Shown: piece after piece, positions 32,238 through 58,559 of the stretch
Numbering within the stretch: the stretch's first letter is position 1
How the letters are laid out: the number at the start of each line of letters is the position of its first letter
NCBI GenBank assembly: GCA_024278175.1
Contig: JAJRTS010000085.1
Coordinates: forward strand, 59,844-123,843
Origin: Gemmatimonadales bacterium
GTDB taxonomy: Bacteria > Gemmatimonadota > Glassbacteria > GWA2-58-10
Length of the DNA stretch: 64,000 bases
Reading direction: 5' to 3'
Translations under genes and position numbers: made by a program
Notes under the pieces: model-generated
Told to the model about the DNA's origin: nothing
Database searches by the model: none
The model's input: the letters and a program-made list of their open reading frames with translations, nothing else

Positions 32238-32256
32238 GTTACTTCCTGCTTTACAG

Positions 32257-33354: not shown

Positions 33355-33461
33355 GAGCATGTTAAAGTCTCCATGGGAACTAAGTTTCTCATGGCTCGGC
33401 CAAAGGCAGGTTTACATGCCTTTGACAACGAAAGAAACAATAAAAATTCCCGAGGATTGCA

Positions 33462-43855: not shown

Positions 43856-44998
43856 TCAGCTCCGGTTGAACTCCTCGATAAACTTCATCGTCTTCTCCAC
43901 CTCTGCCTTTAGTTTCAGCGGGGCGCTCTCCAGGGCGGCCGCCCGGGCACCGATTACCGGCGAGAGGTCAACGTCAAGGCTTAGGGGCTCGGCCAGCGGA
44001 TTGGCGAAACCCAACCCGGCGCTGAGCTGCTCGGCCCGGGAGATAACGCAGGCCCCCAGCGCCAATCCCTGTCCGACGTTGCTCTCGAGACCGAAAGCGG
44101 CACAGTGGTGTAGTTCGATCATCTCGCACACCGAACGGGGTATCTCCCAATGCTCGGCCAGCAGCCTGCCCACGATCAGATGGTTGAAACCGAACAGTTC
44201 CTGCTCCACCCGCATCGGTTCCGGCTCCGGCTCATCGCCGCTCAGTCTTTGGTGCAGCACGGCGGCCCGGTCGCTGTCATAGCGCTCGAAAACCACCCAG
44301 CCGATGTCGTGCAGCAGCGCGGCTGTGGTGACCACGCCGATCTGCCCCGGTTGACCGATCACATCGCGCAACAGGTACTCCGCGCAGATACTAACCACGT
44401 GCGAGTGCATCCAGAACCTCAGCAGGTCGAACCGCTCGCCGAGCTGTTCCTGCCGCGAGTCCAGCCCTTTGTCCACCATCTGCTGGAAAATTATGTTTTT
44501 CACCTGGTTGTATCCCAGGTAGGTTATCGCCCTGGGCAACGAATCGATCCGGGTGCGAAGGCCGACGGCGGCCGCATTGACAGTCTTGAGTATTTTCCCG
44601 GCGTAAAACGGGTTCGAGGCCAGTACGTCGGCCAGCTCTTTCGGCTCCAGGTTGAAATCCAGCCGCACCATCCGCTCCCGGCCGATCTCCGGCATGAGAC
44701 GGATCGCGTGCTCCAGACGCCAGAGAGTCTCGGCCTCTATCTCCTCGCGCCCCAACGGCTTCCAGCCAGCGCCGGTGGCCGGCGCGGGAGCGCCCTCACC
44801 CCTGGAGTCCGCCTGCCTGCGCTCCACGATACCGTCAACCGGGTTACCGCTCCCATTCGTCGCGGCCCGGGTGTGCCTGCGCGGCTGACGGATCACCCTT
44901 TCGATCTTGGGCGGAGGCTTATTGCTTCCGCCGCGCAGCAGAACATATGCTGTCAGCAGCAGCACTGCGAACAGGATTAGAAAGGTCTGGGGGGCCAT
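43856..44998 (-). CDS. membrane-anchored HDOD-domain signalling protein
   Basis: N-terminal TM. HD-related output domain pattern (LLHDIG…, H…HH). Confidence 0.6.
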   Translation of the reverse strand: MAPQTFLILFAVLLLTAYVLLRGGSNKPPPKIERVIRQPRRHTRAATNGSGNPVDGIVERRQADSRGEGAPAPATGAGWKPLGREEIEAETLWRLEHAIRLMPEIGRERMVRLDFNLEPKELADVLASNPFYAGKILKTVNAAAVGLRTRIDSLPRAITYLGYNQVKNIIFQQMVDKGLDSRQEQLGERFDLLRFWMHSHVVSICAEYLLRDVIGQPGQIGVVTTAALLHDIGWVVFERYDSDRAAVLHQRLSGDEPEPEPMRVEQELFGFNHLIVGRLLAEHWEIPRSVCEMIELHHCAAFGLESNVGQGLALGACVISRAEQLSAGLGFANPLAEPLSLDVDLSPVIGARAAALESAPLKLKAEVEKTMKFIEEFNRS

Positions 44999-45236
44999 TG
45001 TTTGGATTCCCGGCGAGCGCGAGGATGAATTATTCGGCGGGGTTGATCAATATTAAATCCCGCGGCTAGCGGAAGTCAAGTTAATTACCCCGCGCGGGCC
45101 GCACCGCGCGTTGCCGGGCAGACTGGCAGAATAGTTATTTGAACTTGACTCATAAGCGGAAAATAGGGTACACTGTTACTTTGCCATCAGATATTGTGAA
45201 AATATTATCCGATGATTTCTTCCGGAGATCTCAGTT

Positions 45237-48200
45237 TTGATAAGTACTGTCAGGAAAATCCCCCCCGTTCTCCTGATTATTTTTTGCACGCTGTGCCAGT
45301 CAGTCTCCGGGCAGGCCGGCGGTGTGGACCGGGACTCCCTGCTGCGTGAAAACCGCCTGCTGCGCGAGCAGCTCGAACATCTCCAGGCACGCCGGGAGGC
45401 GTTTCGCTGGCGGCGTTTCCCCGACGGCCCCCTGCTCAGAAGCGGCACCGTGATGCAAATCGCCCCCGGCCCCGGCTCCAGGCTCGCCTTCGCAACCGAC
45501 AGCCAGGGTCTGGTGCTGTTCGACGGGACCTGGCTGGAGGTGTACGACAGCGAAAACTCATCCCTGCCGGACAATTTCGTTACCGCAACAGCTCTCTTTG
45601 GCGACAAGCTCTGGATCGGCACCGCCGCCGGGCTGGCGGTGCTGGACGCCGACGGCTCGATCCACCGGCCCGCTCCCCTGCCCGGGGAGCTTGCGGGCGG
45701 CACTGTCAGTTGCCTGCTGGCTGCGGGCGATTCCTCGCTCTGGGTGGGAACCCAGGGGGCCGGTCTGTGGCGTTTCGATGGCGAGCGCTGGCAGCAGTTC
45801 ACCTCGCCGGACACCGCCGCCGCCGGGCCGGGAGACATTAACGCGCTGGCACCCAGCGCACCGGGCGACGGAGTATGGGCAGCCACCGCCGGTGAGGGTA
45901 TCTGGCGGGTAACCGGCGGCGCCCTGAAGTGCTTTGGCCAGCCGCTTGGGCCGGGCAGCGAAGAAATCTACAGCGTGATAACCGACAGCGACGCCCTGGT
46001 CTGGATTGGCGCCGCGGGAGCGGGAGCGGGCTTCTGGGACGGGTTCGGCTGGCAGCGCGCTCCGTTGCCCGTGTCCGGCGGCGCGGGCGTGATCTGTATC
46101 GCCGAACTAACGGGCGGCGATCTCTTTTTCGGTACAACCGAAGGGGCCTGGTTCTACGTCCGGCAGGGCAACTCCTGGGAAAAGCTGCCGCTACCCGAGG
46201 AAATCGCCGCCGCGCCGATTGTCGCTGCCGCCGGGCGGAATGGCCGACTGTGGCTGGCCCCCAGCGGAAGCGGCGTCTATTTCCACGACCGTGGCCTGGC
46301 CACGCGCTTCGCCGCCGCCTCCGACCTGCCGTCTGAATCCGTGTATCAGATCAACCAGTCCGCCGATGGCCGCATCTGGTTTTCCACGTTCGGGGGCGTG
46401 GCCATATACGACGGGCGCCGCTGGAGCCGCCTCGACAGACGAAACGGCCTGCCGGACAACCTGGTCACGTTTACCCTGTTCGGGCCGGGAGACACTGTCG
46501 CGTTCGCCACCCACAGGGGAGCGGGCATCCTCTCCGGCGGCCGCTGGAAATACCTGAACAGAGACCTCGGCCTGCGCAGCAACACGATCAACCATCTCGC
46601 CCTGGACAGCCGCGACGGCCTGTGGCTCAGCACAGAGGGTGGTGGACTTACCCTTTCATACAAGGACTCCCTGCTGACATACACAACCGCTGAAGGCCTT
46701 CCCGCCAACCAGGTGCAAGCCGCCCTGCCCGCTGTCGGCGACAGCGTCTGGGTGGCCACCAAGCGGGGGCTGGCCCTGATCACGGGGGGGATGGTTTTGG
46801 GTCCGGCGGCTGATAACGCAACGGATGAGCCCGGGCCACCGGCCGTTCATTACACCGCCCTTGCGATGGACAGCCGGGGCGCGCTGTGGGCGGCCAGTGC
46901 GGGCGACGGGGCCTGGAGAAGAGACGCGGCCGGGCACTGGGAAAAGTTCGGCGTGGAAAACGGCCTGGGCTCCAACGAGGTCTATGCCGTGGCGACCCAC
47001 AGCGATGGGCGGCTGTTTTTCGGCACGCGGGCGGGACTGAGCATCTTCGACGGTTTAAGCTGGCGCAACCTGAGCGGGAAGGACGGGCTCAATCCCGGCG
47101 CTGTCAGGAGCGTGTTTGTCGATTCCGGCGGTGCGCTGTGGCTCTCCGGTGACCGTAACGGCGTGCTCAGGTTCGATACCGGCCGGCTGAAGCTGCCGGA
47201 AACCTATCTCGAAACACCATCCGGTGTGCTGTGCGCGCTCGGCCCCGCTGGAGAACCGCTCCGGCTCGCCCGCGCCGACTCCTCGGGCGAAGGCAGGCTG
47301 ATGCTGGGCAACAGCCGGTACGCTGCTCTGGCCGGCCCGGCCGGAGCCGATACGGTGCGTAGCAACCGGATCAATCTGAGCGTACACGCCGTCACGCCGT
47401 GGTGGAACACGCCCCGGTCCGATTTCACTTTCCAGTGGCGGCTGGACAACGACCCCTGGAGCAGCCACTTGGCGGGCGGTCATCTTACGGTTTTCGACCT
47501 TTCACGCGGCTCTCACGTGCTGGAAGTGCGCGCTCGCGACCCCTATCTCAGGCTGGACCCCACCCCGGCATCGTACAGTTTCTACGTGGACATCCCCACC
47601 CTGCTGGGCGACTGGCGTTTCTGGGCGGCCACGTTTGTGCTCGTCGGCGGTGCGCTTGGCCTCTGGCAGCGCCGCCGCCTGCAATGGTGGCTCAGCATAG
47701 TCCGGCACCGCCGTTTCCGGCCCGTTACGCCCAATCCGTTCAACCCCAACGCGCCCCAGAGCGAACAGGAGCGTTTCCGTGGCAGGGACGAACTGCTGGA
47801 GCGGCTGGCGGGCCTGTTTGACGGCAAGGACCACGGCTCGGTGATAATCCACGGCGGCGAGCGGATCGGCATGACCAGCTTCCTGTTGCAGTGCCGCAAC
47901 CTGGCTGGGCACACGGGAGCGCAAACCGTTTATCTCGACCTGGCCGCGGAAGCGTTTACCGGCGTGGACCGACTGGCAACGCGCCTGGCTGCAAAAATAG
48001 CGCATGATGAGACGGCGGCCGAACACGGCAAAAATAATCCGCTGGATACTCTTGCCGCCCTGCTGGAAACCGGTACCGAGCCGATGGTGCTGATATTCGA
48101 TAACGCGGAGTTGCTCGGCCGCCTGCTTCAGCGTGACAGCGAGCAGGGCAAACGCCTGGTGGCCCTTTTCAGGGCCGCCGTGCTCAAGGACCGCGCGGCG

Positions 48201-50033
48201 GCGTTCGTGTTCGGCACCGCTGAGCTGGATTCTTTCCGCGAGGGCGCGAAAACCCTGTTCGAGATGAGCAGGCTCTACCGCTTGGGGCCGGTCAATATGG
48301 ATGAAGCGGCCGCGATCCTAGCCCATCCCCTGCAAGGCCGCGCGGTGATCCACGCCAGGGCGCTGGAGATGCTGGCCACTCTTTCCGGCGGACAACCCTA
48401 CCTTCTGCAATGGCTGGGACGCGAGCTGGTGGAGGTGATCAACGCGGGGCAGAGCTCACTGGTTACGCTGGAACTGGCCGGACGCGCTGTGGCCAGGCTG
48501 GTGGCCGATCCCCCGCTGCCGCTGCTTGACAGCTGGGAGGAGCTGCCCCGGCGCGAAAAACTGGTGCTGGCCGCGATGTACAAAATCAGGGCGGAAGGCG
48601 ACGGCGGCTCGATGGCGGTGGGCGATATCCGCGCCGTGCTGGCCGGCCACGGAATCGAGATGCTGGCCGAGGAACTGGCCAAGGCCGCGGCCGACCTGTC
48701 GGAGCGCAATCTGGTAAAACTGGACACGCCCTCCGCCGCGCTGACCGCGCCCGATACCCTGCTCGGCCGCTGGATCGCCTCGGCCACCAGTATCCCGGCA
48801 ATCGCCGCGCGGCAGGAGTACGATATCGGCGAGGCGCTGCACCGCTTCTCCGACGAACTCAGCCGCTCGTTCCGTCTCGATGAGCTGGCCGGGCGGGTAC
48901 TGAGCTTTTTTGAATCGATTCTGCACCCGGAGTACTCCGCGTTTCTCACCGCGCGGCCCGCCGATAACGACGGGGAAGAACCGCTGTTAGTGCTCGAAAG
49001 CGTGGGTGGCAGCGGAACCGTCGCCAATCTGCCGGAAAAAATTCCGGCGGCCGCTCTGGAGCGCCTTTCGCTGATAGTGGAAAAAACAACGGAAAGCGCC
49101 GCGGAGACCTCCGGCTTCCCCGCCGGCTGCGTACTCGCTCCCCTGCTGGCCCGTGGCGAACCGGTGGGGCTGGTGGTGCTGGGACCCCGCCGCGACGGCG
49201 AGCGTTACAACAGCCGCGACAGGATGCTGCTGGAGACCTGCGCCGAGCAGACGGCGGTGGCGATGGAGAACTCGCGGCTCTACGAGGAAGAGACTGAAAA
49301 AGAGCGGCTCAAGCAGGAACTCGATACCGCGCGCCGGATGCAGATGGCGATCCTTCCCGAGCGCAAGCCGGATATTCCCGGACTGGACTTTTGCGCCTAT
49401 CTGTCGCCGGCCACCGAGGTCGGCGGGGACTACTACGACTACAAGCTGCTCGATTCGGGCCAACTGGTGTTCGTCATCGGCGATGTGAGCGGGCACGGGG
49501 TCAGCGCCGGGACATTGGTTACAATGTCCAAAAGCTGTATATTTAATCAACTGCGCACGAGCCACGCCGTGGAGCAGGTGATGAGCGCGATGAACGAGAT
49601 GGTTTACGGGGCGCTGGCCGAAAAGTTACTGATGACGCTCTGCTACGCCATTATCGACCCGGCCGCCGGCAAGCTGGTTTACTCGATAGCCGGCCACCCG
49701 TTCCCCTACCACGTGCACGCGGCCGACGGTACGCTGAGCGAGCTCGATATCAGCGCTTATCCGCTGGGGGTTACCCGTAAGGCCCGCTTCAGGACCGCCG
49801 AGGTAAATTTCGCCCCCGGTGATTCGTTCGTGTTTTTCTCCGACGGGATAGTGGAGGCCCAAAACCCGGAGAACGAGCAGTGGGGGTTCGAGCGATTCGA
49901 ACAGGTGGTGACCGGCAACGCAGGCCTGGACGCCGAGTCGCTCACCGGCAAGATTCTGAGCGAGTTTGACGACTTCCGCCGGGGCGTGCCCCAGGACGAT
50001 GACGTTACTTTAGTGACTATCAAGGTGCGATGA
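45237..50033 (+). CDS. giant envelope sensor: signal peptide, Reg_prop beta-propeller + Y_Y_Y, TM, AAA-like ATPase, GAF, PP2C/SpoIIE phosphatase
   Basis: About 13 repeats of the L(W/F)(I/V)GTxxG(L/A)xxxDG type (two-component regulator propeller), TM at about aa 790, Walker-A-like HGGERIGMTSFL, GAF core, C-terminal SpoIIE motifs (GDVSGHGVSAG … FSDGIVEA … DDVTLV). Confidence 0.75.
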   Translation: MISTVRKIPPVLLIIFCTLCQSVSGQAGGVDRDSLLRENRLLREQLEHLQARREAFRWRRFPDGPLLRSGTVMQIAPGPGSRLAFATDSQGLVLFDGTWLEVYDSENSSLPDNFVTATALFGDKLWIGTAAGLAVLDADGSIHRPAPLPGELAGGTVSCLLAAGDSSLWVGTQGAGLWRFDGERWQQFTSPDTAAAGPGDINALAPSAPGDGVWAATAGEGIWRVTGGALKCFGQPLGPGSEEIYSVITDSDALVWIGAAGAGAGFWDGFGWQRAPLPVSGGAGVICIAELTGGDLFFGTTEGAWFYVRQGNSWEKLPLPEEIAAAPIVAAAGRNGRLWLAPSGSGVYFHDRGLATRFAAASDLPSESVYQINQSADGRIWFSTFGGVAIYDGRRWSRLDRRNGLPDNLVTFTLFGPGDTVAFATHRGAGILSGGRWKYLNRDLGLRSNTINHLALDSRDGLWLSTEGGGLTLSYKDSLLTYTTAEGLPANQVQAALPAVGDSVWVATKRGLALITGGMVLGPAADNATDEPGPPAVHYTALAMDSRGALWAASAGDGAWRRDAAGHWEKFGVENGLGSNEVYAVATHSDGRLFFGTRAGLSIFDGLSWRNLSGKDGLNPGAVRSVFVDSGGALWLSGDRNGVLRFDTGRLKLPETYLETPSGVLCALGPAGEPLRLARADSSGEGRLMLGNSRYAALAGPAGADTVRSNRINLSVHAVTPWWNTPRSDFTFQWRLDNDPWSSHLAGGHLTVFDLSRGSHVLEVRARDPYLRLDPTPASYSFYVDIPTLLGDWRFWAATFVLVGGALGLWQRRRLQWWLSIVRHRRFRPVTPNPFNPNAPQSEQERFRGRDELLERLAGLFDGKDHGSVIIHGGERIGMTSFLLQCRNLAGHTGAQTVYLDLAAEAFTGVDRLATRLAAKIAHDETAAEHGKNNPLDTLAALLETGTEPMVLIFDNAELLGRLLQRDSEQGKRLVALFRAAVLKDRAAAFVFGTAELDSFREGAKTLFEMSRLYRLGPVNMDEAAAILAHPLQGRAVIHARALEMLATLSGGQPYLLQWLGRELVEVINAGQSSLVTLELAGRAVARLVADPPLPLLDSWEELPRREKLVLAAMYKIRAEGDGGSMAVGDIRAVLAGHGIEMLAEELAKAAADLSERNLVKLDTPSAALTAPDTLLGRWIASATSIPAIAARQEYDIGEALHRFSDELSRSFRLDELAGRVLSFFESILHPEYSAFLTARPADNDGEEPLLVLESVGGSGTVANLPEKIPAAALERLSLIVEKTTESAAETSGFPAGCVLAPLLARGEPVGLVVLGPRRDGERYNSRDRMLLETCAEQTAVAMENSRLYEEETEKERLKQELDTARRMQMAILPERKPDIPGLDFCAYLSPATEVGGDYYDYKLLDSGQLVFVIGDVSGHGVSAGTLVTMSKSCIFNQLRTSHAVEQVMSAMNEMVYGALAEKLLMTLCYAIIDPAAGKLVYSIAGHPFPYHVHAADGTLSELDISAYPLGVTRKARFRTAEVNFAPGDSFVFFSDGIVEAQNPENEQWGFERFEQVVTGNAGLDAESLTGKILSEFDDFRRGVPQDDDVTLVTIKVR

Positions 50034-52147
50034 ACCAGCAAAAATCCATAGCCGCCCTTCCGGAGCTGGCCGCGGCACTCGAAGAGCTGGACGGGCTCTG
50101 CCGCTCGTTCGACCGCGTACCCGGAGCTCAGGCGGTTTTCCCGCAAGTACTGGAAACGGTTGGTCGGATCTGCGGCGGGGTGGAGTTGCAGGGCTACCTG
50201 TATGACAAGGCCAGGGCCGTGTTCGAACCATTCGGCGGCCCGGCGGAGCAGGGTCTCACTAGGCTGGCCATGCCAAACCATCTGTTTGAAATCCTCTCCG
50301 GGGCCAGGGGACGGATCGCGGACGAGCCATTCGAACTGGAAGCCCTGAGCCAGTCCCACCCGTGGTGGAATTTCCATGAGTGCAACAACGTGGCGATCAA
50401 GCGCAACCGGATCGTGGCCATTTACCCGCTGGTCTCCGCGCGCGAGGTGCTGGGCCTGATCGCCCTGGACGCGGGCGGACTGGAGCAGGTGAGCGAGGCC
50501 GGTTCGGTTAACCTGTTGAGACTGGCGGCCGCCCAGATCGCACTGGGACTGAGCCACCTGAGCCTGGTGTCCACAATCCGCCGGACCAGCTTCCAGAGCA
50601 GGCTCAAGGCCCTGGAGCTGGAAACGCTTCAGGATGTGGGCATGGCGTTCGCCGGCAGCCTGGACCTTAAGCAACTCACCGGCGACCTGCTGATGCGGGT
50701 GATCTCGATCCTGAATGTCAACCGCGCCGCCGTACTGCTCGACAACGCGCCGGGCCGCGACAATCTGGCAGGCGAATTCCGCCCGGAGGTGGTGGAAAGT
50801 TTCGGGCTGGAAGAGCTGGAGGAAACGTTGGTGGACTCGCTGGCAGGTTGCCCACAGGCCGCGGCCAACCTGCTGGAGAACTCTCCCACCGTGATCAATG
50901 ATCCCGCCCTGGCCGCGGAGCTGGGCTGCCGCAACCTGATGGTCGTGCCGATCCAGTACAAGGGGCAGTTGCTGGGCGCGATCCTGGTGGGCGACAAAGA
51001 AAGCCGCAGCGAGCCTGAGCCAACCTTCGGCGACGACGACCTTCGCCTGCTGAGCGCGATGGCGGGTCAGGCGGGCGCGGCTATTTCCAATGCGCGGCTC
51101 TACAGCGACGTGCTGCGGATGAAGAATTTCAACGAAAATATCCTGACCAGTATCGCCAGCGGGGTGATTACCACCGGCGGCGACAACCGGGTGGTGAGTT
51201 TCAACGACTCCGCCGCCCGCATATTCGGGATTTCTCCCACCCGTGCGGTGGGCATGAGCGTGGAGGCACTGTTCTCCCAACTGGAGCTGAGTGAGCTGGC
51301 CGGTAAGATTACCGCGATAAAAAAATCAGGCGAGCATTTCCAGGAGATGAACGTAACGGCTTCCGGCCCCGGCGGCGATGAACTTTCGCTCAACGTGAGC
51401 GTCACCCCGTTCAGCGGCGGGCAGGATCCCGGCGGCCTGGAAACCGACAGCGGGGCCGGACTGGTGATTTCGCTGGAAAACGTGAGCGAGGGGGCCAGAA
51501 TCAAGGACACGCTGCGGCGCTATGTGAGCGCCAACGTGGCCGACATGGTGCTCGCGGAAGGCCATCAGCTTGTGCTGGGCGGCAAGCTCAGCGAGGTCAC
51601 TGTGCTGTTTGCCGATATCCGCGGTTTCACCTCGCTCAGTGAACGTCGCTCACCCCAGGAAGTGGTCGAATTGCTGAACAGTTACTTTGACTTGATCATC
51701 GACGTGGTTTTCCGCTACAATGGTACAGTGGATAAAATTGTCGGCGATGAGATCATGGTCCTGTTCGGCGCTCCCTTCCCGCTGGAAGACGACACCGAGA
51801 GGGCAGTGCGTTGCGCCATGGAGATGCTTGCCGAGCTTGAAAAATACAACGCCGCGCGAACCGGCAGCGGACAGGATCCGCTTAAGATCGGGATCGGGCT
51901 TAATCGCGGCAACGTAATCAGTGGCAATATCGGCTCGGCCAAGCACATGGACTACACGGTGATCGGCGATGCGGTCAACCTGGCCAGCCGCCTGGTGGAC
52001 AACGCCGCTCCCGGACAGATTCTGCTCACCCGCAGCGTGGCCGGCCAGTTGGGAGAGGAATTCCCCTGCCGCCGGATCGGCGAGATCATGGTTAAGGGCA
52101 AGCGAAAACCTGTCGAAATCTTTGAAATAGCGAGTGAAGCGCAATGA
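50030..52147 (+). CDS. GAF/PAS-regulated class III adenylate (nucleotidyl) cyclase
   Basis: C-terminal CHD: VTVLFADIRGFTSLSE…KIVGDEIMVLFGAP…GLNRGNVISGNIGS. ATGA overlap with the upstream sensor gene. Confidence 0.8.
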   Translation: MNQQKSIAALPELAAALEELDGLCRSFDRVPGAQAVFPQVLETVGRICGGVELQGYLYDKARAVFEPFGGPAEQGLTRLAMPNHLFEILSGARGRIADEPFELEALSQSHPWWNFHECNNVAIKRNRIVAIYPLVSAREVLGLIALDAGGLEQVSEAGSVNLLRLAAAQIALGLSHLSLVSTIRRTSFQSRLKALELETLQDVGMAFAGSLDLKQLTGDLLMRVISILNVNRAAVLLDNAPGRDNLAGEFRPEVVESFGLEELEETLVDSLAGCPQAAANLLENSPTVINDPALAAELGCRNLMVVPIQYKGQLLGAILVGDKESRSEPEPTFGDDDLRLLSAMAGQAGAAISNARLYSDVLRMKNFNENILTSIASGVITTGGDNRVVSFNDSAARIFGISPTRAVGMSVEALFSQLELSELAGKITAIKKSGEHFQEMNVTASGPGGDELSLNVSVTPFSGGQDPGGLETDSGAGLVISLENVSEGARIKDTLRRYVSANVADMVLAEGHQLVLGGKLSEVTVLFADIRGFTSLSERRSPQEVVELLNSYFDLIIDVVFRYNGTVDKIVGDEIMVLFGAPFPLEDDTERAVRCAMEMLAELEKYNAARTGSGQDPLKIGIGLNRGNVISGNIGSAKHMDYTVIGDAVNLASRLVDNAAPGQILLTRSVAGQLGEEFPCRRIGEIMVKGKRKPVEIFEIASEAQ

Positions 52148-52611
52148 GCCCGAACGACGCCGGAGAATACACGTTCGACCGGGTGGAGCACATGAGTATC
52201 CCCGCCGAGCCGAACCGGGAACTGGAGGTGGCCGAGCGGGCGTTCGAGCTGGCGCGCGGCGTGGGCCTTGGCGCCGACGAGGCCGACGAGGTGCGGCTGG
52301 CGGTGATCGAGGCGGTGATCAACGCGATCGAACACGGCCGCAACGAGCAGGGCCGGGTGCAGGTCTCTTTCTCCACCGGCAGCAGACCCGCCAGGCTGGC
52401 GGTAACCGTGGGCGACAGCGGCCGCGGGTTCGACCCCTCGCGGGTTGCTGCGCCCAACATTGCAGAGAAGATCGGTACAAATCAACGCAAAAGGGGCTGG
52501 GGACTTAAGTTGATGCGCAGCCTGATGGACGAGGTGATAGTCGACAGCAGCGCCAAAGGCACCCGGGTGACCCTGATCAAACAGGCTAAAGTACTGCCCG
52601 GCCTGGGGTAA
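52144..52611 (+). CDS. RsbW/SpoIIAB-like anti-sigma factor (HATPase_c serine kinase)
   Basis: 155 aa, N-box-like EAVINAIEHG, G-box DSGRGF. ATGA overlap with the cyclase gene. Confidence 0.75.
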   Translation: MSPNDAGEYTFDRVEHMSIPAEPNRELEVAERAFELARGVGLGADEADEVRLAVIEAVINAIEHGRNEQGRVQVSFSTGSRPARLAVTVGDSGRGFDPSRVAAPNIAEKIGTNQRKRGWGLKLMRSLMDEVIVDSSAKGTRVTLIKQAKVLPGLG

Positions 52612-52690
52612 GATTTTTCCCATGACGATGGATAAGCAATTATTTACCATTGAGTTATTAATCCGCCCCCGGCCGCAGGGGCGGGAACGA

Positions 52691-52719
52691 TTGACATCTG
52701 GCTGAGGCCGCTCTACATT
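52691..52719 (+). promoter_or_regulatory. candidate sigma70 promoter TTGACA-N17-TACATT upstream of the STAS gene
   Basis: Read from the sequence. Preceded by the GC hairpin ccgcccccggccgcaggggcgg, a possible terminator of the upstream operon. Confidence 0.4.
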
Positions 52720-52828
52720 ATTTTCCATAGATTCCGGCCGCGCCGCCACGGGAATACTTAAGTCCAGCCGCACTGGACAGCTTCTCCCGGCGAGGCGTCC
52801 GCTTAACCGTCACCGACGGAGTGAAGCA

Positions 52829-53179
52829 ATGCCCGACAATTTCGAAGTAATCGTACAGCGGGAGGCCACCTACGCGATCCTTCGCACCGAAGGCTACATC
52901 AACAACACGGGCGGGGAAAAAATCGCCCGGGAATGCTACAAGATGCTCGACGACGGGATCGGGGTATTTATCCTCAACCTGGCCAAATCCCCGATTGTCA
53001 ACAGTGTCGGCATCGCCGTGCTGATCGAGTTGATCGAGCGGGTGCGGGAAGACGGCGACAAGGTGATCTTTTGCAACTGCACTCCTGTTATCGCGAAAAC
53101 TTTCAAAATCATGGGCCTGACCCAGTACGCCGAGTTATACGAAAATGAAAAAGAAGCTCTGGCAAATATCCGCTCGTAG
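52829..53179 (+). CDS. STAS-domain anti-sigma-factor antagonist (RsbV/SpoIIAA-like)
   Basis: 116 aa. The conserved phospho-Ser region LAKSPIVNSVGIAVLIEL. Confidence 0.75.
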   Translation: MPDNFEVIVQREATYAILRTEGYINNTGGEKIARECYKMLDDGIGVFILNLAKSPIVNSVGIAVLIELIERVREDGDKVIFCNCTPVIAKTFKIMGLTQYAELYENEKEALANIRS

Positions 53180-54311
53180 CCTGCTGGCCGCGCTGCTGAT
53201 GCTGACGGCGACAACTTCGCCGGTACGCGCCGTGTTCGACAGCAGCACGCTGGACGGGCGGCAGTACATCAATATCATCTTCATTCTCGACTGCTCTGCC
53301 AGCATGAACAAAATCATCGGCCCGGTGCGCAAGATTGACATCGCCAAGAGAACTGTCGATACGATCCTGAAGAACCTGGCGATCGAGAGCCACCAGGCCG
53401 GATCGATGGATACGGGTCTTCGCGTGTTCGGCTCCAAGTTCTACAAGTGGAAAAAAAACTGCGACGATACCACGCTGGAAATCCCGCTCGGTGATATCGA
53501 GGACACGATGACCCCAATCCTGCTGGCGGTCCAGGGAGTAACCGCCAAGGGCCAGAGCTCGCTGGCGCTGACCATGGACGCGTTGACAGGAGATTTTCCC
53601 GTTGCCGATGACCAGTGCAGTTTTATCATCGTTGTCTCGGACGGCGACGAATCCTGCGGCGGCAACCCCTGCATGGCGGTGGAGCAACTGGCCAGCGCAT
53701 CCCAGGGCATTTCCGTCAACACGCTGGGTGTTGAAACCGACCCCGCCGGTTATGACAACCTGAACTGCATGGCCGAGGCCGGTAACGGGCTCTATTTCGA
53801 CTCCAAGGACGTGGACGAGTTTATCCTGTTCCTCAAGGACTGTAACGAGAAAATCCAGCAAAACAGGCAGAAACTGGCCGACTCCGTGATTGATACGACA
53901 GTAATCACCCGGCGCGACATTACCGAAAGCATGACCGAGTACAAGGTCGAAAGCCCGGTCCCGCTCTATCCCGATCACGACGACAGGTTCGCTCCGGTGG
54001 ACACTCTTACTCCCGATGACAAGGTTTTCATGCTTTCCAGCCGCGGTTTGTGGATCGAGGTGTTTGCGCCGGATAAACAGATCCAGGGCTGGATTCTGGC
54101 AAAGCGGGGCGGCTCGGAGTATTCGGTTACCGTTACCGACGACAAAACCCCGCTTTACGTGGAAAAGAGCCCATCGAGCGAGGTTGTGACTTACCTGGAC
54201 GCGGGCACCCAGCTAACAGTCCTCAAACGCGAGGGGGCGTGGTACAATGTTATCGACACCAACACGAATGTCCGCGGCTGGGTGATCGCTTTCAACGTGG
54301 CCGAGAACTGA
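53145..54311 (+). CDS. secreted von Willebrand factor A (VWA) domain protein with C-terminal SH3b-like repeats
   Basis: Signal peptide. MIDAS-like DCSASM. Two C-terminal segments of the LYVEKSPSSEVVTYLDAGTQLTVL…GWV type. Confidence 0.6.
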   Translation: MKKKLWQISARSLLAALLMLTATTSPVRAVFDSSTLDGRQYINIIFILDCSASMNKIIGPVRKIDIAKRTVDTILKNLAIESHQAGSMDTGLRVFGSKFYKWKKNCDDTTLEIPLGDIEDTMTPILLAVQGVTAKGQSSLALTMDALTGDFPVADDQCSFIIVVSDGDESCGGNPCMAVEQLASASQGISVNTLGVETDPAGYDNLNCMAEAGNGLYFDSKDVDEFILFLKDCNEKIQQNRQKLADSVIDTTVITRRDITESMTEYKVESPVPLYPDHDDRFAPVDTLTPDDKVFMLSSRGLWIEVFAPDKQIQGWILAKRGGSEYSVTVTDDKTPLYVEKSPSSEVVTYLDAGTQLTVLKREGAWYNVIDTNTNVRGWVIAFNVAEN

Positions 54312-54358: not shown

Positions 54359-55339
54359 ATGGCCGGAGTACTGAAAAAATTCACCCGTGGTGAGGTGATA
54401 ATCGCCGAGGGTTCGGTAGGGACAAATGTCTATATCGTCCGCTCCGGCCGGGTGGAGGTTTTCAAAAACAGTTCCACCGGCGCGCTGCAACTGGCCACCC
54501 TGGGGGCCAACGAAGTGTTCGGCGAGATGAGCCAGATCGACGAGCGTTTCAGCCGCCGCACGGCCAGTGTGAGGGCTATCGAGGACTGCGAAATCATCAT
54601 TCTCGACCGCGAGGGTTTCGACAACTACCTCAAGGGTACCTCGGCCGGTATCTCCAACCTGATCAAGCGCCTCTCGAACCGCCTTCGCGAGACCAACGAT
54701 ATCATCTCCCACGCGGGCCTGGACCCGCGGAACCTGCCCAAAGCGATCAAGCTGACCAAAGCCGATAACGGCGAGGGCAGGCTTACAGACGACCAGTTGG
54801 CCGAGTCGGTGAACGCGGCCGTGGATCTTCAACTGCTGCCCAAAAAATTCAGCAAGGGACAGACGCTGATCCGTGAAAACGCCGAGGCGATGAGCCTGTT
54901 CATGCTGAAAAGCGGCACTGTGCGCGTGTTCAAAACGGTGGCCGGCGAAGAAGTGGAGATCGACGACCTGACGGTGAACGAGGTGTTCGGCGAGATCAGC
55001 GCGTTCGACGAGGGCGTGAGGTTTTTTACGGTCAAGGCGCTCGATGACGGCGAGGCGGTGGTATTCAGCAAGAGGCAGATGGACGAAATGTTGCGCAAGG
55101 CGCCCCTGGAGCTGTTCCTGATCCTGGACTGTGTCGTGATGAAGCTGAAACGCACTTCGCTCAGATACCTGGAATCGCTGGAAAAGGAAGTTATTCACAA
55201 GCGGGAAATTACCAGCAAGGACGAGGAAATCTCCCGGCTGAGCAGTGAAAAAGAGGAACTGGCCCGGCAGGTAAAGGAACTAACCGGCAAGGTTGAGCAA
55301 CTGAACGATCAAATCCGAAAACTTCAGCCGCAGCAGTAA
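54359..55339 (+). CDS. tandem cyclic-nucleotide-binding domain protein with C-terminal coiled coil
   Basis: Two cNMP beta-roll domains (FGEMSQIDERFSRRTASVRA; FGEISAFDEGVRFFTVKA), then a coiled coil. Confidence 0.7.
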   Translation: MAGVLKKFTRGEVIIAEGSVGTNVYIVRSGRVEVFKNSSTGALQLATLGANEVFGEMSQIDERFSRRTASVRAIEDCEIIILDREGFDNYLKGTSAGISNLIKRLSNRLRETNDIISHAGLDPRNLPKAIKLTKADNGEGRLTDDQLAESVNAAVDLQLLPKKFSKGQTLIRENAEAMSLFMLKSGTVRVFKTVAGEEVEIDDLTVNEVFGEISAFDEGVRFFTVKALDDGEAVVFSKRQMDEMLRKAPLELFLILDCVVMKLKRTSLRYLESLEKEVIHKREITSKDEEISRLSSEKEELARQVKELTGKVEQLNDQIRKLQPQQ

Positions 55340-56399: not shown

Positions 56400-58514
56400 T
56401 CAGACATAGGGTTTGACCTTTTCCCGTACCTGCTCGTAGTTGCACGGCTTGATCAGGTAATCGTTGGCCCCGCTGCGCTCGATCTGCCGCAGCAGGACCG
56501 CGCTGTTCACATCGCTCATCACGATCACCGGGGTCTCGGCTGTCGCCTCGGCCGAGCGCAACTGTTTGAGCGCCTCCAGCCCGTTGACCAGCGGCATTCG
56601 TAAATCCAGCATCACCAGGTCCGGAGCTTCGCGGGCCACCGCCGAGAGCAGCGCCTTTCCGTTGAAAACCGCTGTCGCCTTGAACCCCTCGTGGTTTAAC
56701 CTGGCGCAAATATCCTTGCAGAACCTGATATCGTCGTCGGCCACCAGGATTTTGATCCCCTCTTCCCGGCGGGCGATTTTCTTCCTCGCAACCTTCAGAT
56801 TGCGCTGCACAATTTCCTCGCTGTCCTTTTCCGGCACCTTGAGCAGGCTTTTCAGCTCCGGTTGATGTTGTCCTATTTCTCCGATCAGCCAGACGCCGCT
56901 GGCTCTCATTTTTCCGTCCTTGGAGAGCAGCATGTCCTCCAGCGAGTCCCGGATATCCCTGTGCCCGAAATTCCAGATTGCTTTTAGCGTATTGGCCCGC
57001 ACCCGGTTGTCCTTATCGTACTTGTATTTCATCAGGATTCCCATCACGTTGCGGTTGCCGATTGCCTCCAGCGATTCGATCACGTTGGCGCGCACACGGG
57101 CGTTCTTATCGTTGAGCATCTTCATCAACAGGCTGCTCTCGTGCTGATCCAGCATCTCGGCGATCAGTTTGACCGTGGTTGCCCGCACCTTGTCGTCCTC
57201 GTCCACGATAATATCGGCCAGTGTCCTGGCCGTGAAATCCTTATCCTCGCGGATCAGGATATCCAGTATCTTCCGGATCGTGACCGGGTTGGGAATCTCC
57301 ATGTTTTGCAGATAAGAAAAGCGGCTGTCCAGACCGACCACGAAATCGATCAGCTTCTTTTTCTGCCGGATACCCAGAATCGGCGTTTCCTCGTTTTCCC
57401 GCAGCAGGCGCAGGACAATCTTGATCGTAGTGCCCCGCGCCAGGTTGCGAAGAAATACGCTCTTGTACTGCGCCAGCGGCAGAATGTGCTTCAGCGCATC
57501 GAGCCCGCCGGTATTCGCCAGTTCCTTCAGTGGTTTGATCTTGTTGCTGTCCGGCATGTCCTTGAGTTGGGAGGCCAGAACCTCGGCGCGCTTTACGGGG
57601 TCCTTTATCGTCGATGGGTCTATTTGTTTCTGTTTCACATCCCTTGCCTGCGCTGCCTCCCTGTCCTCGTCGGTGGCGCTTTCGCCCGGCTGCCCGCCCC
57701 CCTGAGGCGTGCTCTCGCCCGCCAGCTCATTTTCGTCCCCGCCACCGGTACCGCCGTCGCCGCCCAGCTCCCGCACCAGTTCCTCCACTTCCCGCCTTAC
57801 TTTTTCGAACACTTCTCCGGCCCGGTTCTCCACCGCCTTGTTTCTCAACGCGCCGATCTCGATATAGTAGTACAGGCATTGGCTGAGTCTCTTGATATTC
57901 TCGCCATATGTCTTAACCATATTGTTCTGCGAATCCAGCTTCTGCTCCCGGCGGGACTCCTCCAGTGTGGCCTGGACTTTCTCGATCTGCGCCTCCAGCA
58001 ACGTGGGATTAGCCAGCCGGAGAATCAGCAGGTTCAACATACCCTCATCAAGCCCAGCGGGCATGGCTTGTTCGCCCTGCTCGCTTTCGCCGTTTTCCTG
58101 TTCTTGCTCAAGCTCATCGATTTGCCCACGAAGTTTCTGATACAGTTCCTGCTGTTCCTGCTGCTCTTTGGAAAGACTTCCGTTGCCGGTAGCAGGTACC
58201 TGCAGCAACTCCACCAGTTTGCCGGCGGTGGCGATATCGATCTCCCCGAGCCACTGCGTTCTGTTAACGGCGGCTTCCTTGTGCCCGGCGTTCATGAACA
58301 GGATCCGCTTAAACACAAGGGCCTCGCGGATTTTTTCGATCTCCAGCCGGTAATACTGCTGAAATCTGTCCAGTACTCCCCACCCCTGCTCGTGAGCGCC
58401 ATTGCTGTCGAAAACCTCGTCCAGAACGCGCTTGACCCGATCCAGCGGCTGATGGTCGCCGGCAATCTCCACCAGAGTGCGCAAGATTTTTTTCAGTATC
58501 GCGCAGAGCAACAC
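56400..58514 (-). CDS. HEAT-repeat (PBS-lyase type) protein with C-terminal receiver (REC) domain
   Basis: Multiple D(K/D)xxRVRAxxxxAL repeats. C-terminal ILVADDD…DLRMP…KP receiver. Same frame as ORF 58560-59213, separated by one TAG. Confidence 0.7.
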   Translation of the reverse strand: MLLCAILKKILRTLVEIAGDHQPLDRVKRVLDEVFDSNGAHEQGWGVLDRFQQYYRLEIEKIREALVFKRILFMNAGHKEAAVNRTQWLGEIDIATAGKLVELLQVPATGNGSLSKEQQEQQELYQKLRGQIDELEQEQENGESEQGEQAMPAGLDEGMLNLLILRLANPTLLEAQIEKVQATLEESRREQKLDSQNNMVKTYGENIKRLSQCLYYYIEIGALRNKAVENRAGEVFEKVRREVEELVRELGGDGGTGGGDENELAGESTPQGGGQPGESATDEDREAAQARDVKQKQIDPSTIKDPVKRAEVLASQLKDMPDSNKIKPLKELANTGGLDALKHILPLAQYKSVFLRNLARGTTIKIVLRLLRENEETPILGIRQKKKLIDFVVGLDSRFSYLQNMEIPNPVTIRKILDILIREDKDFTARTLADIIVDEDDKVRATTVKLIAEMLDQHESSLLMKMLNDKNARVRANVIESLEAIGNRNVMGILMKYKYDKDNRVRANTLKAIWNFGHRDIRDSLEDMLLSKDGKMRASGVWLIGEIGQHQPELKSLLKVPEKDSEEIVQRNLKVARKKIARREEGIKILVADDDIRFCKDICARLNHEGFKATAVFNGKALLSAVAREAPDLVMLDLRMPLVNGLEALKQLRSAEATAETPVIVMSDVNSAVLLRQIERSGANDYLIKPCNYEQVREKVKPYV

Positions 58515-58559
58515 CTGCCGGCGCAGGCTCGCCAGCGGCTCACCGTGGTTGATCTGGTC

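What the first reader, a model, noticed from the sequence alone, without database searches (positions are those of the whole stretch)
45237..53179. Partner-switching module wired to an adenylate cyclase rather than a sigma factor
Four genes in order: a 1598-aa PP2C/SpoIIE phosphatase sensor, a GAF-PAS class III adenylate cyclase, an RsbW-like HATPase kinase and a STAS antagonist. The first three are translationally coupled by ATGA overlaps at 50030-50033 and 52144-52147. The STAS gene has its own TTGACA-N17-TACATT promoter. No sigma factor is encoded in the locus. Classical RsbU-RsbV-RsbW circuits control SigB. Here the only plausible output is the cyclase, together with the nearby cNMP-binding proteins at 54359-55339 and 1971-2963 and the HDOD protein at 43856-44998. 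The inference is a partner-switch that gates cAMP synthesis. That coupling has not, to my knowledge, been described as a fixed operon.
Basis: partly seen in the sequence, partly recalled or inferred. Interest (0 to 1): 0.75.

Follow-up and report, generated by a model that had tools for sequence, protein, structure and literature searches.

The report
Partner-switch module coupled to adenylate cyclase
A phosphatase/kinase/STAS "partner-switch", the kind of circuit that normally controls a sigma factor, sits here in a fixed gene cluster with a cAMP-making enzyme, and the same pairing recurs in several bacterial phyla, so the switch most likely controls cAMP synthesis.

Summary
All four genes are present with the stated domains. 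Both ATGA overlaps exist. The TTGACA-N17-TACATT promoter lies before the STAS gene and is conserved in nine related loci.

The window comes from a Candidatus Glassbacteria (Gemmatimonadota) genome. The order PP2C-cyclase-kinase-STAS-VWA/SH3-cNMP is conserved across that lineage, down to 48% kinase identity.

The coupling also holds outside the lineage, in other gene orders. Examples are Marinimicrobia, Prosthecochloris, a Bacteroidetes MAG, abundant marine metagenome contigs and a "Deltaproteobacteria" MAG. Seen from the cyclase side, 27 of 29 orthologous cyclases have the STAS gene beside them; 0 of 36 paralogous GAF-cyclases do. No sigma-70-family gene lies in any cyclase-linked locus.

In one relative, a diguanylate cyclase carrying the same tandem-GAF N-terminus occupies the cyclase slot. 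This marks that position as the output.

The logic is not new. SiaABCD, BgrUWV-BgrR, HsbA-HsbD and Moorella MtT-MtG are partner switches that gate diguanylate cyclases. I found no description of a version that gates an adenylate cyclase.

Verdict: a real, widespread, undescribed variant of a known kind. Direction of signalling and the contact partner (STAS or kinase) remain inferred.

The parts
45145..45208 (+). Two overlapping sigma-70-like promoter candidates upstream of the phosphatase gene: TTGACT-N18-TACACT (45145-45174) and TTGCCA-N16-TATTAT (45181-45208).
   Evidence: Consensus scan. I did not test conservation, so this is a candidate only.
45237..50033 (+). Sensor PP2C phosphatase, 1598 aa. 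From N- to C-terminus: signal peptide; periplasmic Reg_prop beta-propeller repeats plus a Y_Y_Y-like module; a hydrophobic segment near aa 791-810 followed by RRR; a weak P-loop (AAA_16/AAA_22-like) domain whose Walker A lacks the lysine (GGERIGMTS); GAF (about aa 1258-1345); SpoIIE/PP2C (aa 1407-1597).
   Evidence: Pfam. PP2C motifs GGDYYD (1396), GDVSGHG (1415), SDGI (1535) and DDDVT (1587) are all present. Orthologues of 1603-1644 aa occupy the same position in related loci.
50030..52147 (+). Class III adenylate cyclase, 705 aa: divergent GAF (aa 1-190), GAF (212-354), PAS (368-465), catalytic domain (520-696). Its start overlaps the phosphatase stop (ATGA).
52144..52611 (+). RsbW/SpoIIAB-like serine kinase, 155 aa (HATPase_c_2). 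Its start overlaps the cyclase stop (ATGA).
   Evidence: Pfam. Best solved relatives are RsbW (6M36) and SpoIIAB. N-box E56/N60/H64, G1 D91/G93 and G2 G118/G120 are invariant across 15 relatives.
52691..52719 (+). Promoter of the STAS operon: TTGACA-N17-TACATT.
   Evidence: 10 of 12 positions match. The element is conserved in all 9 related loci inside a spacer that otherwise does not align.
52829..53179 (+). Single-domain STAS protein, 116 aa, with the phospho-acceptor Ser59 in the motif VNSVG.
   Evidence: Pfam. Ser59 aligns with SpoIIAA Ser58. Asn58, Ser59 and Gly61 are invariant in 46 of 46 STAS proteins from cyclase-linked loci.
53145..54311 (+). Secreted VWA + SH3 protein, 388 aa. It overlaps the STAS gene end by 35 nt. 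It is conserved only in Glassbacteria-type loci. Its role is unknown.
   Evidence: Pfam. Same position in L001-L006 and L091. Absent from the cyclase-linked loci of other phyla.
54359..55339 (+). Tandem cNMP-binding protein with a C-terminal coiled coil and no DNA-binding domain. It is the candidate cAMP receptor of the locus, in this lineage only.
   Evidence: Pfam. NCBIfam matches only the cNMP-binding part of CRP. Conserved in all Glassbacteria-type loci.
43856..44998 (-). Divergently transcribed membrane-anchored HDOD protein. It is a lineage-specific neighbour, and whether it belongs to the system is uncertain.
   Evidence: Pfam. N-terminal hydrophobic anchor. Present in L001-L005 and L091 but absent in L006 and in the other phyla.

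Best explanation
The locus encodes a partner-switching system whose output is a class III (IIIb-type, Lys/Thr) adenylate cyclase instead of a sigma factor.

**Proposed flow**
1. The 1598-aa membrane phosphatase senses a periplasmic ligand through its beta-propeller/Y_Y_Y domain. It dephosphorylates the STAS protein at Ser59.
2. The RsbW-like kinase re-phosphorylates Ser59.
3. The phosphorylation state of STAS decides which partner is bound, and that sets the activity of the GAF-GAF-PAS cyclase.
4. I favour direct binding of unphosphorylated STAS to the cyclase's N-terminal GAF/helix module, as SiaC binds SiaD and as BgrV and HsbA act on their diguanylate cyclases. The close second is that the kinase binds and restrains the cyclase until STAS titrates it away, as Moorella MtT does with MtG.
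5. The cAMP made is read, in this lineage, by the co-transcribed tandem-cNMP coiled-coil protein.

**Shown:** the parts; their catalytic and phospho-acceptor residues; two transcription units; cross-phylum linkage; absence of a sigma gene.

**Inferred:** every protein contact, the direction of signalling, the sign of regulation and the ligand.
For: **Parts are intact**
- PP2C metal-binding motifs are present.
- Kinase N, G1 and G2 boxes are conserved.
- STAS Ser59 aligns to SpoIIAA Ser58 and is invariant in 46 of 46 relatives.
- The cyclase has the Lys/Thr specificity pair, both metal Asp residues and the Asn/Arg pair.

**Expression is tightly coupled**
- ATGA overlaps link phosphatase to cyclase and cyclase to kinase. 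Equivalent overlaps occur in L001, L003 and L014.
- In other phyla the kinase, STAS and cyclase genes are separated by 0-20 nt or overlap.

**Linkage survives rearrangement across phyla**
- Window: PP2C-cyc-K-S.
- L055 and marine contigs: PP2C-K-S-cyc.
- L076 and L087: K-S-cyc-PP2C.
- L010: PP2C-K-S-cyc.

**Linkage is specific to one cyclase clade**
- 27 of 29 orthologous cyclases have STAS adjacent, against 0 of 36 paralogues.

**Kinases co-cluster with neighbour type**
- Cyclase-linked kinases fall in two clusters, apart from the Acidobacteriota ones.

**The output slot can be swapped**
- In L058 the slot after STAS holds a GAF-GAF-GGDEF enzyme.
- Its 340-aa tandem-GAF N-terminus aligns only with partner-switch-linked cyclases: E 1e-31 to 1e-22, and all 12 top hits are linked ones.

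**No competing target nearby**
- No sigma gene was found in any linked locus.
- No other gene family is shared by all linked loci.

**Precedent**
- Both contact modes are documented for diguanylate cyclases (PMC7647112, PMC8457831, PMC5085249).
Against: - All evidence is genomic. No interaction, phosphorylation or cAMP measurement exists.
- Synteny cannot give direction. cAMP could instead feed back on the GAF domain of the phosphatase. That GAF is absent from the phosphatases of the other phyla.
- Only 64 kb of the genome was seen, so an unlinked sigma or other target cannot be excluded.
- Within Glassbacteria the whole neighbourhood (Dus, HhH-GPD, S66 peptidase, trpE) is syntenic. Conservation inside that lineage therefore carries little weight by itself.
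- L099 keeps phosphatase and cyclase without kinase or STAS between them.
- Closely related kinase/STAS pairs in Acidobacteriota and some FCB-group loci (Bacteroidetes-type L007-L009, Calditrichaceae L053, Flavobacteria L056) have no cyclase nearby.
- No natural STAS-cyclase fusion appeared among the top 120 STAS relatives.
Confidence: 0.62

Rival explanations
1. **Reverse wiring.** The cyclase is the input. Its GAF/PAS domains sense a signal, and the cAMP produced acts on the GAF domain of the phosphatase (or on the cNMP protein). This sets STAS phosphorylation. STAS or the kinase then controls an unlinked target.
For: - The window phosphatase has a GAF domain directly before its PP2C domain.
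- GAF domains of CyaB1/CyaB2-type cyclases bind cAMP (established knowledge; 1YKD appears among the fold matches).
- Synteny alone does not give direction.
Against: - The phosphatases in the Marinimicrobia, Bacteroidetes and marine loci are Reg_prop/Y_Y_Y-PP2C proteins without GAF. A cAMP-to-phosphatase link therefore cannot be the conserved feature.
- The phosphatase GAF is not specifically similar to the cyclase GAF.
- The GGDEF swap in the same slot matches known switch-to-cyclase systems.
- This reading leaves the system with no output in any locus.
Confidence: 0.12
2. **Unlinked conventional target.** The switch controls a sigma factor or other regulator encoded elsewhere in the genome. 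The cyclase is only a co-expressed neighbour with its own GAF/PAS inputs.
For: - Partner-switch modules with unlinked or unknown targets are common, for example Nostoc HcyA-D and HmpWUV (PMC9127174).
- Related kinase/STAS pairs occur with no cyclase nearby.
- Only 64 kb of this genome was inspected.
Against: - Adjacency is retained through at least three different gene orders in at least four phyla.
- It is restricted to one cyclase clade: 27 of 29 against 0 of 36.
- Gene starts and stops overlap.
- No sigma gene lies in any linked locus.
- The kinase and STAS score far below the NCBIfam thresholds for RsbW, SpoIIAB and SpoIIAA orthologues.
Confidence: 0.15
3. **Direct phosphorylation.** The kinase phosphorylates the cyclase itself on a Ser or Thr in its GAF/PAS region and the PP2C reverses this. 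STAS acts only as a competing pseudo-substrate.
For: - The cyclase and kinase genes are translationally coupled, while STAS has its own promoter in this lineage.
Against: - RsbW-type kinases are known to phosphorylate STAS-fold substrates. The cyclase has no STAS-like region: its N-terminus is a GAF fold.
- The STAS Ser59 is invariant in 46 of 46, as expected of the true substrate.
Confidence: 0.06
4. **Anti-phage defence.** The cluster is a Pycsar-like cyclic-nucleotide defence system with a regulatory add-on.
For: - The cyclase matches PADLOC PycC models (82 bits), and the cNMP protein matches the cNMP-binding part of PycTIR effectors.
- A PycTM-like two-TM protein lies next to the cyclase in 8 marine relatives.
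Against: - These matches are generic class III cyclase and cNMP-domain homology. Pfam Guanylate_cyc scores higher (110 bits).
- The specificity residues are Lys/Thr, the adenylate type.
- The window has no TIR or TM effector.
- The locus sits in stable housekeeping synteny across deep divergence, unlike defence islands.
Confidence: 0.03

Closest known systems
SiaABCD of Pseudomonas aeruginosa (PMC7647112, PMC8457831)
   Same: - One operon encodes a membrane PP2C phosphatase (SiaA), an RsbW-like kinase (SiaB), a small phospho-switch protein with an anti-sigma-antagonist fold (SiaC) and a nucleotide cyclase (SiaD).
- The unphosphorylated switch protein binds and activates the cyclase.
- No sigma factor is involved.
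   Different: - The output there is a GGDEF diguanylate cyclase; here it is a class III adenylate cyclase.
- SiaC is a DUF1987 protein phosphorylated on Thr68; here it is a canonical PF01740 STAS with the SpoIIAA-type Ser.
- The phosphatase matches the SiaA model at only 60 bits against a 700-bit threshold.
- SiaC binds the coiled-coil stalk of SiaD. The docking site here is unknown.
BgrU/BgrW/BgrV-BgrR of Sinorhizobium meliloti and HsbR/HsbA-HsbD of P. aeruginosa (as summarised in PMC7647112 and PMC8457831; PMC5085249)
   Same: - A PP2C phosphatase/kinase pair sets the phosphorylation state of a true STAS protein.
- That STAS protein controls a second-messenger cyclase by direct interaction.
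   Different: - The output is c-di-GMP, not cAMP.
- The inputs differ: HsbR is driven by a His-phosphorelay.
- HsbA also has a sigma-related partner.
Moorella thermoacetica stressosome output MtT-MtG (as summarised in PMC7647112)
   Same: The RsbT/RsbW-type switch kinase itself binds and attenuates a nucleotide cyclase. This is the precedent for the 'kinase as anti-cyclase' reading.
   Different: - It is a stressosome (RsbR/RsbS scaffold) system with a diguanylate cyclase.
- No stressosome genes are present here.
RsbU-RsbV-RsbW-SigB and SpoIIE-SpoIIAA-SpoIIAB-SigF of Bacillus subtilis
   Same: - The same three protein families are used.
- The phospho-Ser position is the same.
- The best solved relatives are RsbW, SpoIIAB and SpoIIAA.
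- The presumed target gene is tightly coupled to the switch genes.
   Different: - There is no sigma gene.
- The kinase and STAS fall far below the orthologue thresholds.
- The phosphatase is a 1598-aa periplasmic-sensor protein.
Anabaena CyaB1/CyaB2 adenylate cyclases (GAF-GAF-PAS-catalytic; established knowledge; CyaB2 tandem GAF 1YKD appears)
   Same: - The domain order is the same: GAF-GAF-PAS-class III catalytic domain.
- The specificity pair is the Lys/Thr (class IIIb) type.
   Different: - CyaB1 is known to be auto-activated by cAMP through GAF-B and has no described partner-switch neighbours.
- The first GAF here is highly divergent: Pfam E 0.003 only.

Membership tests
Partner-switching system (PP2C phosphatase + RsbW-type kinase + STAS antagonist) | All three protein families are encoded together. 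| tested here: met
   Pfam SpoIIE 153 bits, HATPase_c_2 94 bits and STAS 49 bits, all above the gathering thresholds.
Partner-switching system (PP2C phosphatase + RsbW-type kinase + STAS antagonist) | A conserved phospho-acceptor Ser/Thr on the STAS protein, at the SpoIIAA Ser58 position. | tested here: met
   Ser59 aligns with SpoIIAA Ser58 and is invariant in 46 of 46 relatives.
Partner-switching system (PP2C phosphatase + RsbW-type kinase + STAS antagonist) | Catalytically competent kinase and phosphatase. | tested here: met
   Kinase N, G1 and G2 box residues are invariant. PP2C motifs GGDYYD, GDVSGHG, SDGI and DDDVT are present. This is sequence evidence only.
Partner-switching system (PP2C phosphatase + RsbW-type kinase + STAS antagonist) | Mutually exclusive, phosphorylation-dependent binding of the kinase or STAS to a target. 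| not testable with these tools
   This needs binding assays or multimer modelling.
SigB/SigF-type anti-sigma module (RsbW/SpoIIAB orthologue) | Orthology of the kinase and STAS to RsbW/SpoIIAB and RsbV/SpoIIAA. | tested here: not met
   NCBIfam scores against cut-offs: spIIAB 57 vs 135, RsbW 54 vs 145, spore_II_AA 36 vs 115, ant_ant_sig 41.5 vs 53.45.
SigB/SigF-type anti-sigma module (RsbW/SpoIIAB orthologue) | A cognate sigma-70-family gene in the operon. | tested here: not met
   None in the locus or in any cyclase-linked relative. The only sigma in the window is an ECF type 27 kb away.
Class III adenylate cyclase | Catalytic domain with two metal-binding Asp residues, the transition-state Asn/Arg pair, and an adenine-specifying Lys plus Asp/Thr. 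| tested here: met
   Guanylate_cyc 110 bits. FADIRGFT, DKIVGDE, DYTVIGDAVNLASR are present. Lys stands where the guanylate cyclase Cya2 has Glu.
CyaB1-like GAF-GAF-PAS cyclase architecture | Tandem GAF, then PAS, then the catalytic domain. | tested here: met
CyaB1-like GAF-GAF-PAS cyclase architecture | cAMP binding by a GAF domain. | not tested
   Only a partial NKFDE-like pattern (DKE...F...D) is visible in the alignment.
SiaABCD system | A DUF1987 switch protein and a GGDEF cyclase. | tested here: not met
   The switch protein is PF01740 STAS and the cyclase is PF00211. SiaA model: 60 bits against a 700-bit threshold. The system works like SiaABCD but is not a member.
Pycsar anti-phage system | A pyrimidine cyclase plus a TIR or TM cNMP effector in a defence context. 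| tested here: not met
   Only generic domain matches in PADLOC. The specificity residues are purine (adenine) type. The locus sits in housekeeping synteny.

The most novel reading that the evidence does not exclude
This kinase/STAS clade is a general, portable regulator of enzymes and activators that carry a particular N-terminal GAF module.
- The same switch drives an adenylate cyclase in Glassbacteria, Marinimicrobia, Chlorobi and Bacteroidetes.
- It drives a diguanylate cyclase in a Sericytochromatia genome.
- It possibly drives a GAF-sigma54 activator in Thermoanaerobaculia.
- In each case STAS or the kinase would dock on the GAF module.

That would make it a widespread, undescribed route from periplasmic sensing to cAMP in abundant uncultured marine and sediment bacteria.
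Probability: 0.3. Interest if true: 0.78.

Novelty: new variant of a known kind. Interest (0 to 1): 0.62.

Why it matters
- **A new regulatory input for class III adenylate cyclases.** Bacterial class III cyclases are usually thought to be regulated by domains fused to them. Control by a trans-acting phospho-switch has been shown only for diguanylate cyclases. A conserved adenylate-cyclase version would extend partner switching to cAMP signalling.
- **A new way to switch these enzymes.** It would give class III cyclases a protein-protein mode of regulation.
- **A function for orphan genes.** Thousands of 'anti-sigma factor' and 'anti-sigma antagonist' genes in genomes that lack a matching sigma factor would gain a function. 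The STAS subfamily alone has more than 4000 sequence clusters, and one member was seen on at least 281 marine contigs.
- **It is easy to test.** The cyclase can be reconstituted in an E. coli strain lacking its own cyclase, with and without the switch proteins.

Tried and rejected
- **A hidden STAS-like or sigma-like domain in the unassigned first 200 residues of the cyclase.** This would have wired the cyclase directly to the kinase. Rejected: the region is a GAF fold.
- **A sigma factor in the orthologous loci.** None was found with RpoD, SigF or ECF seeds. I therefore repeated the search with the window's own Pfam-verified ECF sigma.
- **Anti-phage (Pycsar) reading.** Only generic domain homology was found.
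- **Rosetta-stone fusions of STAS with a cyclase.** None appeared among the best 120 of 4289 STAS relatives. Only the top of the list was visible.
- **A GAF subfamily specific to the partner switch and shared by phosphatase and cyclase.** Not supported for the phosphatase, because unlinked cyclases match equally well. It is supported only for the L058 GGDEF protein.
- **A structured RNA in the 217-nt kinase-STAS spacer.** There is no Rfam match anywhere in the locus. The only conserved element in the spacer is the promoter.
- **Literature search for a described partner-switch-to-adenylate-cyclase system.** The 'adenylate cyclase' hits were all bacterial two-hybrid methods sections.
- **Cyclase word-index search.** It returned almost only Glassbacteria relatives and did not broaden the sample. 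The pattern scans of genomes and metagenomes did.
- **Multimer structure prediction.** The structure tool takes single chains only, so I did not attempt it.


Full report
**1. The observation**

The four ORFs exist as described.
- 45237-50033 (TTG start, 1598 aa) carries a C-terminal SpoIIE/PP2C domain (E 1e-44), Reg_prop propeller repeats, and weak GAF and AAA_16 matches.
- 50030-52147 (705 aa) carries GAF, PAS and a class III cyclase domain (E 1e-31).
- 52144-52611 (155 aa) is an HATPase_c_2 protein.
- 52829-53179 (116 aa) is a STAS protein.
- ATGA overlaps are present at 50030-50033 and 52144-52147.
- TTGACA-N17-TACATT lies at 52691-52719.
- Downstream, a signal-peptide VWA-SH3 protein (53145-54311) overlaps the STAS gene by 35 nt. 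A protein with two cNMP-binding domains and a C-terminal coiled coil follows.
- Upstream, a membrane-anchored HDOD protein is transcribed divergently.

**2. The parts look functional**

- The PP2C domain keeps the motifs GGDYYD, GDVSGHG, SDGI and DDDVT.
- The kinase keeps its N, G1 and G2 boxes. Its closest solved relatives are RsbW (6M36) and SpoIIAB.
- STAS Ser59 aligns with the phospho-acceptor Ser58 of SpoIIAA. Together with Asn58 and Gly61 it is invariant in 46 of 46 STAS proteins from cyclase-linked loci.
- The cyclase has both metal-binding Asp residues, the Asn/Arg pair, and Lys (DKIVGD) plus Thr (DYTVIGD) at the base-specifying positions. In the alignment with the guanylate cyclase Cya2 (2W01), the Lys stands where Cya2 has Glu. 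It matches the Lys of the engineered adenylate-cyclase version, 6FHT. It is therefore an adenylate cyclase of the Lys/Thr type.
- The enzyme is thus GAF-GAF-PAS-CHD, the CyaB1/CyaB2 architecture. It contains nothing STAS-like or sigma-like.
- The phosphatase has a signal peptide, then about 770 periplasmic residues of propeller repeats with a Y_Y_Y-like module, then a hydrophobic segment followed by RRR. On the cytoplasmic side it has a weak P-loop domain whose Walker A lacks the lysine, a GAF, and the PP2C domain.

**3. Origin and transcription units**

- The closest relatives of the kinase and the cyclase come from Candidatus Glassbacteria / Gemmatimonadota MAGs.
- The TTGAC(A/T)-N17-TA(C/A/G)ATT element occurs in the kinase-STAS spacer of all nine related loci examined. 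The surrounding spacer varies from 92 to 338 nt and does not align. This is good footprint evidence for a real promoter.
- The locus is therefore two units: phosphatase-cyclase-kinase, and STAS-VWA/SH3-cNMP.
- Rfam finds no RNA element in the locus.

**4. Is the cyclase the conserved partner?**

*Within the Glassbacteria-type lineage.*
- The order is identical in every locus, with kinase identity from 100% down to 48%.
- The whole neighbourhood (Dus, HhH-GPD, S66 peptidase, HEAT/response regulator, trpE) is conserved too. This alone therefore proves little.

*A genome-wide scan seeded with the kinase, annotated with local HMMs and Pfam.*
- Marinimicrobia (L055): PP2C-PP2C-kinase-STAS-cyclase.
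- Prosthecochloris (L076): kinase-STAS-cyclase-PP2C-PP2C.
- Bacteroidetes MAG (L087): kinase-STAS-cyclase-PP2C.
- 'Deltaproteobacteria' MAG (L010): PP2C-kinase-STAS-cyclase.

*The reciprocal test.*
- I scanned metagenomes with a cyclase alignment headed by the Prosthecochloris enzyme and annotated the hits.
- The 34 best loci match over the full length at 34-46% identity. Of those with at least 400 nt upstream, 27 of 29 have STAS adjacent. Of those with at least 900 nt upstream, 20 of 23 have both kinase and STAS.
- The 46 lower-ranked loci are paralogous GAF-GAF cyclases that match only in the PAS and catalytic part. None of the 36 with enough upstream sequence has either gene.
- The exceptions are L099 (phosphatase-cyclase only), L119 (Glassbacteria order, contig ends at the cyclase) and L120 (a different STAS type, no kinase).

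*Further support.*
- Two abundant marine STAS proteins, one seen on at least 281 contigs, sit in the same module on Mb-scale contigs.
- Apart from the four core genes, no gene family is shared across the linked loci.
- No sigma-70-family gene was found in any linked locus with RpoD, SigF or ECF seeds.
- The window's only sigma is an ECF type at 17594-18124, 27 kb away, with its own putative anti-sigma neighbour.

**5. Evidence that the cyclase position is the output**

- Kinases cluster by neighbour type. There is one Glassbacteria cluster and one cluster of 26 cyclase-linked kinases from the FCB superphylum (Fibrobacterota-Chlorobiota-Bacteroidota and allies, including Marinimicrobia). Both are separate from 68 Acidobacteriota kinases.
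- Inside the FCB cluster lies L058 (Sericytochromatia). There the gene after STAS encodes GAF-GAF-GGDEF.
- That protein's whole tandem-GAF region (aa 22-361) aligns to the N-termini of partner-switch-linked cyclases at E 1e-31 to 1e-22. All 12 best hits are linked ones, out of a database with 45 unlinked and 43 linked sequences.
- A catalytic domain has therefore been exchanged on the same regulatory module, downstream of the same switch. This is what one expects if the module receives the switch signal.
- The corresponding claim for the phosphatase GAF is not supported, because unlinked cyclases match it equally well.

**6. Mechanism**

The known cases of partner switches with enzyme outputs all concern diguanylate cyclases.
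- In SiaABCD, unphosphorylated SiaC binds the stalk of SiaD and activates it. SiaB phosphorylation of Thr68 prevents this, and SiaA reverses the phosphorylation (PMC8457831, PMC7647112).
- BgrU and BgrW set the state of the STAS protein BgrV, which controls the cyclase BgrR. HsbA interacts with HsbD (PMC7647112, PMC5085249).
- In Moorella it is the switch kinase MtT that binds and attenuates the cyclase MtG (PMC7647112).

By analogy I propose the following.
1. The periplasmic sensor phosphatase dephosphorylates STAS-P.
2. Unphosphorylated STAS then either binds the cyclase's GAF/helix module directly (favoured, about 45% of the weight within this model), or removes an inhibitory kinase from it (about 30%).
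3. cAMP is then read by the co-transcribed tandem-cNMP coiled-coil protein.

Two observations point in different directions.
- The ATGA coupling of cyclase and kinase in this lineage slightly favours a stoichiometric kinase-cyclase complex.
- The second STAS gene flanking the cyclase in L093 and L095, and the three STAS-type precedents, favour direct STAS contact.

None of these contacts has been shown. My confidence that the switch controls the cyclase is about 0.6.

**7. Rivals**

- *Reverse wiring (cAMP acting on the phosphatase GAF).* This cannot be the conserved logic, because the phosphatases of the other phyla lack GAF.
- *An unlinked sigma target.* This cannot be excluded from 64 kb. 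It is disfavoured by the clade-specific, rearrangement-proof linkage and by the absence of orthology to RsbW, SpoIIAB and SpoIIAA.
- *Direct phosphorylation of the cyclase.* This lacks a STAS-like substrate domain.
- *A Pycsar-like defence role.* This rests only on generic homology and conflicts with the adenine-type residues and the stable housekeeping context.

**8. Comparison with what is known, and novelty**

- The system is a member of the partner-switching class by composition and by its phospho-site.
- It is not a SigB/SigF module: there is no sigma gene, and scores fall below the orthologue thresholds.
- It is not a SiaABCD member: both the switch-protein family and the cyclase family differ.
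- It works like SiaABCD and BgrUWV-BgrR, but the second messenger is cAMP.
- Five full-text searches found no description of a partner switch coupled to an adenylate cyclase. The apparent hits were two-hybrid methods sections. The library does not cover all journals, so an earlier description cannot be ruled out.
- I rate it a new variant of a known kind: real, conserved and widespread. Interest is about 0.6.

Noticed in passing
window 16388-18124 (-): An ECF-type sigma factor (Sigma70_r2, 17594-18124) is followed by an unassigned 138-aa ORF (17043-17459, a possible anti-sigma) and a zinc-ribbon/PspC-domain protein (16388-16999). This is the only sigma gene in the window. It lies 27 kb from the locus.
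   Followed up: partly
window 58560-58562 (-), within 56400-59165: The HEAT-repeat/response-regulator-like gene is interrupted by an in-frame TAG. The Glassbacteria orthologues L001 and L003 have Glu (GAG) at that position. The cause is a nonsense mutation or a one-base assembly error.
   Followed up: partly
window 47697-48300 (+), phosphatase aa 846-979: The cytoplasmic part of the sensor phosphatase contains a weak STAND-like P-loop domain (AAA_16/AAA_22, E about 3e-4). Its Walker A reads GGERIGMTS, with Met in place of the catalytic Lys. It is probably a non-hydrolysing scaffold.
   Followed up: partly
L015-L090 (Acidobacteriota/Thermoanaerobaculia loci), e.g. L019:8037-9530: The sister clade of kinase/STAS pairs has no cyclase. 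In 47 of 57 loci with enough upstream sequence, a GAF-sigma54-activator (bEBP) gene lies on the same strand, a median of 463 nt upstream of the kinase. A GAF-PP2C gene lies directly after STAS. This may be a partner switch acting on a sigma54 activator.
   Followed up: partly
L058:9980-12452 (Candidatus Sericytochromatia): The order is kinase-STAS-GAF-GAF-GGDEF. A diguanylate cyclase sits in the slot that the adenylate cyclase occupies elsewhere, and its tandem-GAF N-terminus is homologous to those of the linked cyclases.
   Followed up: yes
L112, L113, L117, L118, L121, L124-L126, e.g. L113:8515-9057 (-): In eight marine loci, a 180-aa protein lies next to the partner-switch-linked cyclase. 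It matches Pycsar two-TM effector models (Pfam PycTM 35 bits; PADLOC PycTM 57 bits over the full profile). It may be a cyclic-nucleotide-gated membrane effector.
   Followed up: partly
L087:988-3126; L107:7974-10783: In the Bacteroidetes-type loci the cyclase carries a C-terminal HD phosphohydrolase domain (GAF-PAS-CHD-HD). A TMEM175-like potassium-channel homologue follows it in five loci.
   Followed up: no
L010:10882-12537 ('Deltaproteobacteria' MAG GCA_016197285.1): The cyclase after kinase-STAS has Glu (INEFIGD) and Gly (KYGIVG) at the base-specifying positions, like the guanylate cyclase Cya2. This relative may make cGMP.
   Followed up: no
L093:9536-9886; L095:2928-3281: A second STAS gene lies directly downstream of the cyclase, giving the order kinase-STAS-cyclase-STAS.
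   Followed up: no
window 1971-2963 (-): This is a CRP-like protein of 330 aa. NCBIfam CRP matches positions 26-200 of 214, and there is one cNMP domain. It could be a transcriptional cAMP receptor, but it lies 43 kb from the locus and is not in the conserved neighbourhood.
   Followed up: partly
window 50600-51100 (+), cyclase aa 330-350: The second GAF of the cyclase keeps an invariant DKE...F...D pattern across phyla. This resembles the NKFDE motif of cyclic-nucleotide-binding GAF domains and hints at cAMP feedback as in CyaB1. The resemblance is judged from memory of the motif.
   Followed up: no
window 26036-34034 (+); 3218-3302 (-); 14898-14970 (-): A NADH dehydrogenase (nuo) gene run starts at 26036; subunits 3, 20 kDa and 30 kDa were verified. 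There are two tRNA genes. This is ordinary housekeeping context.
   Followed up: no
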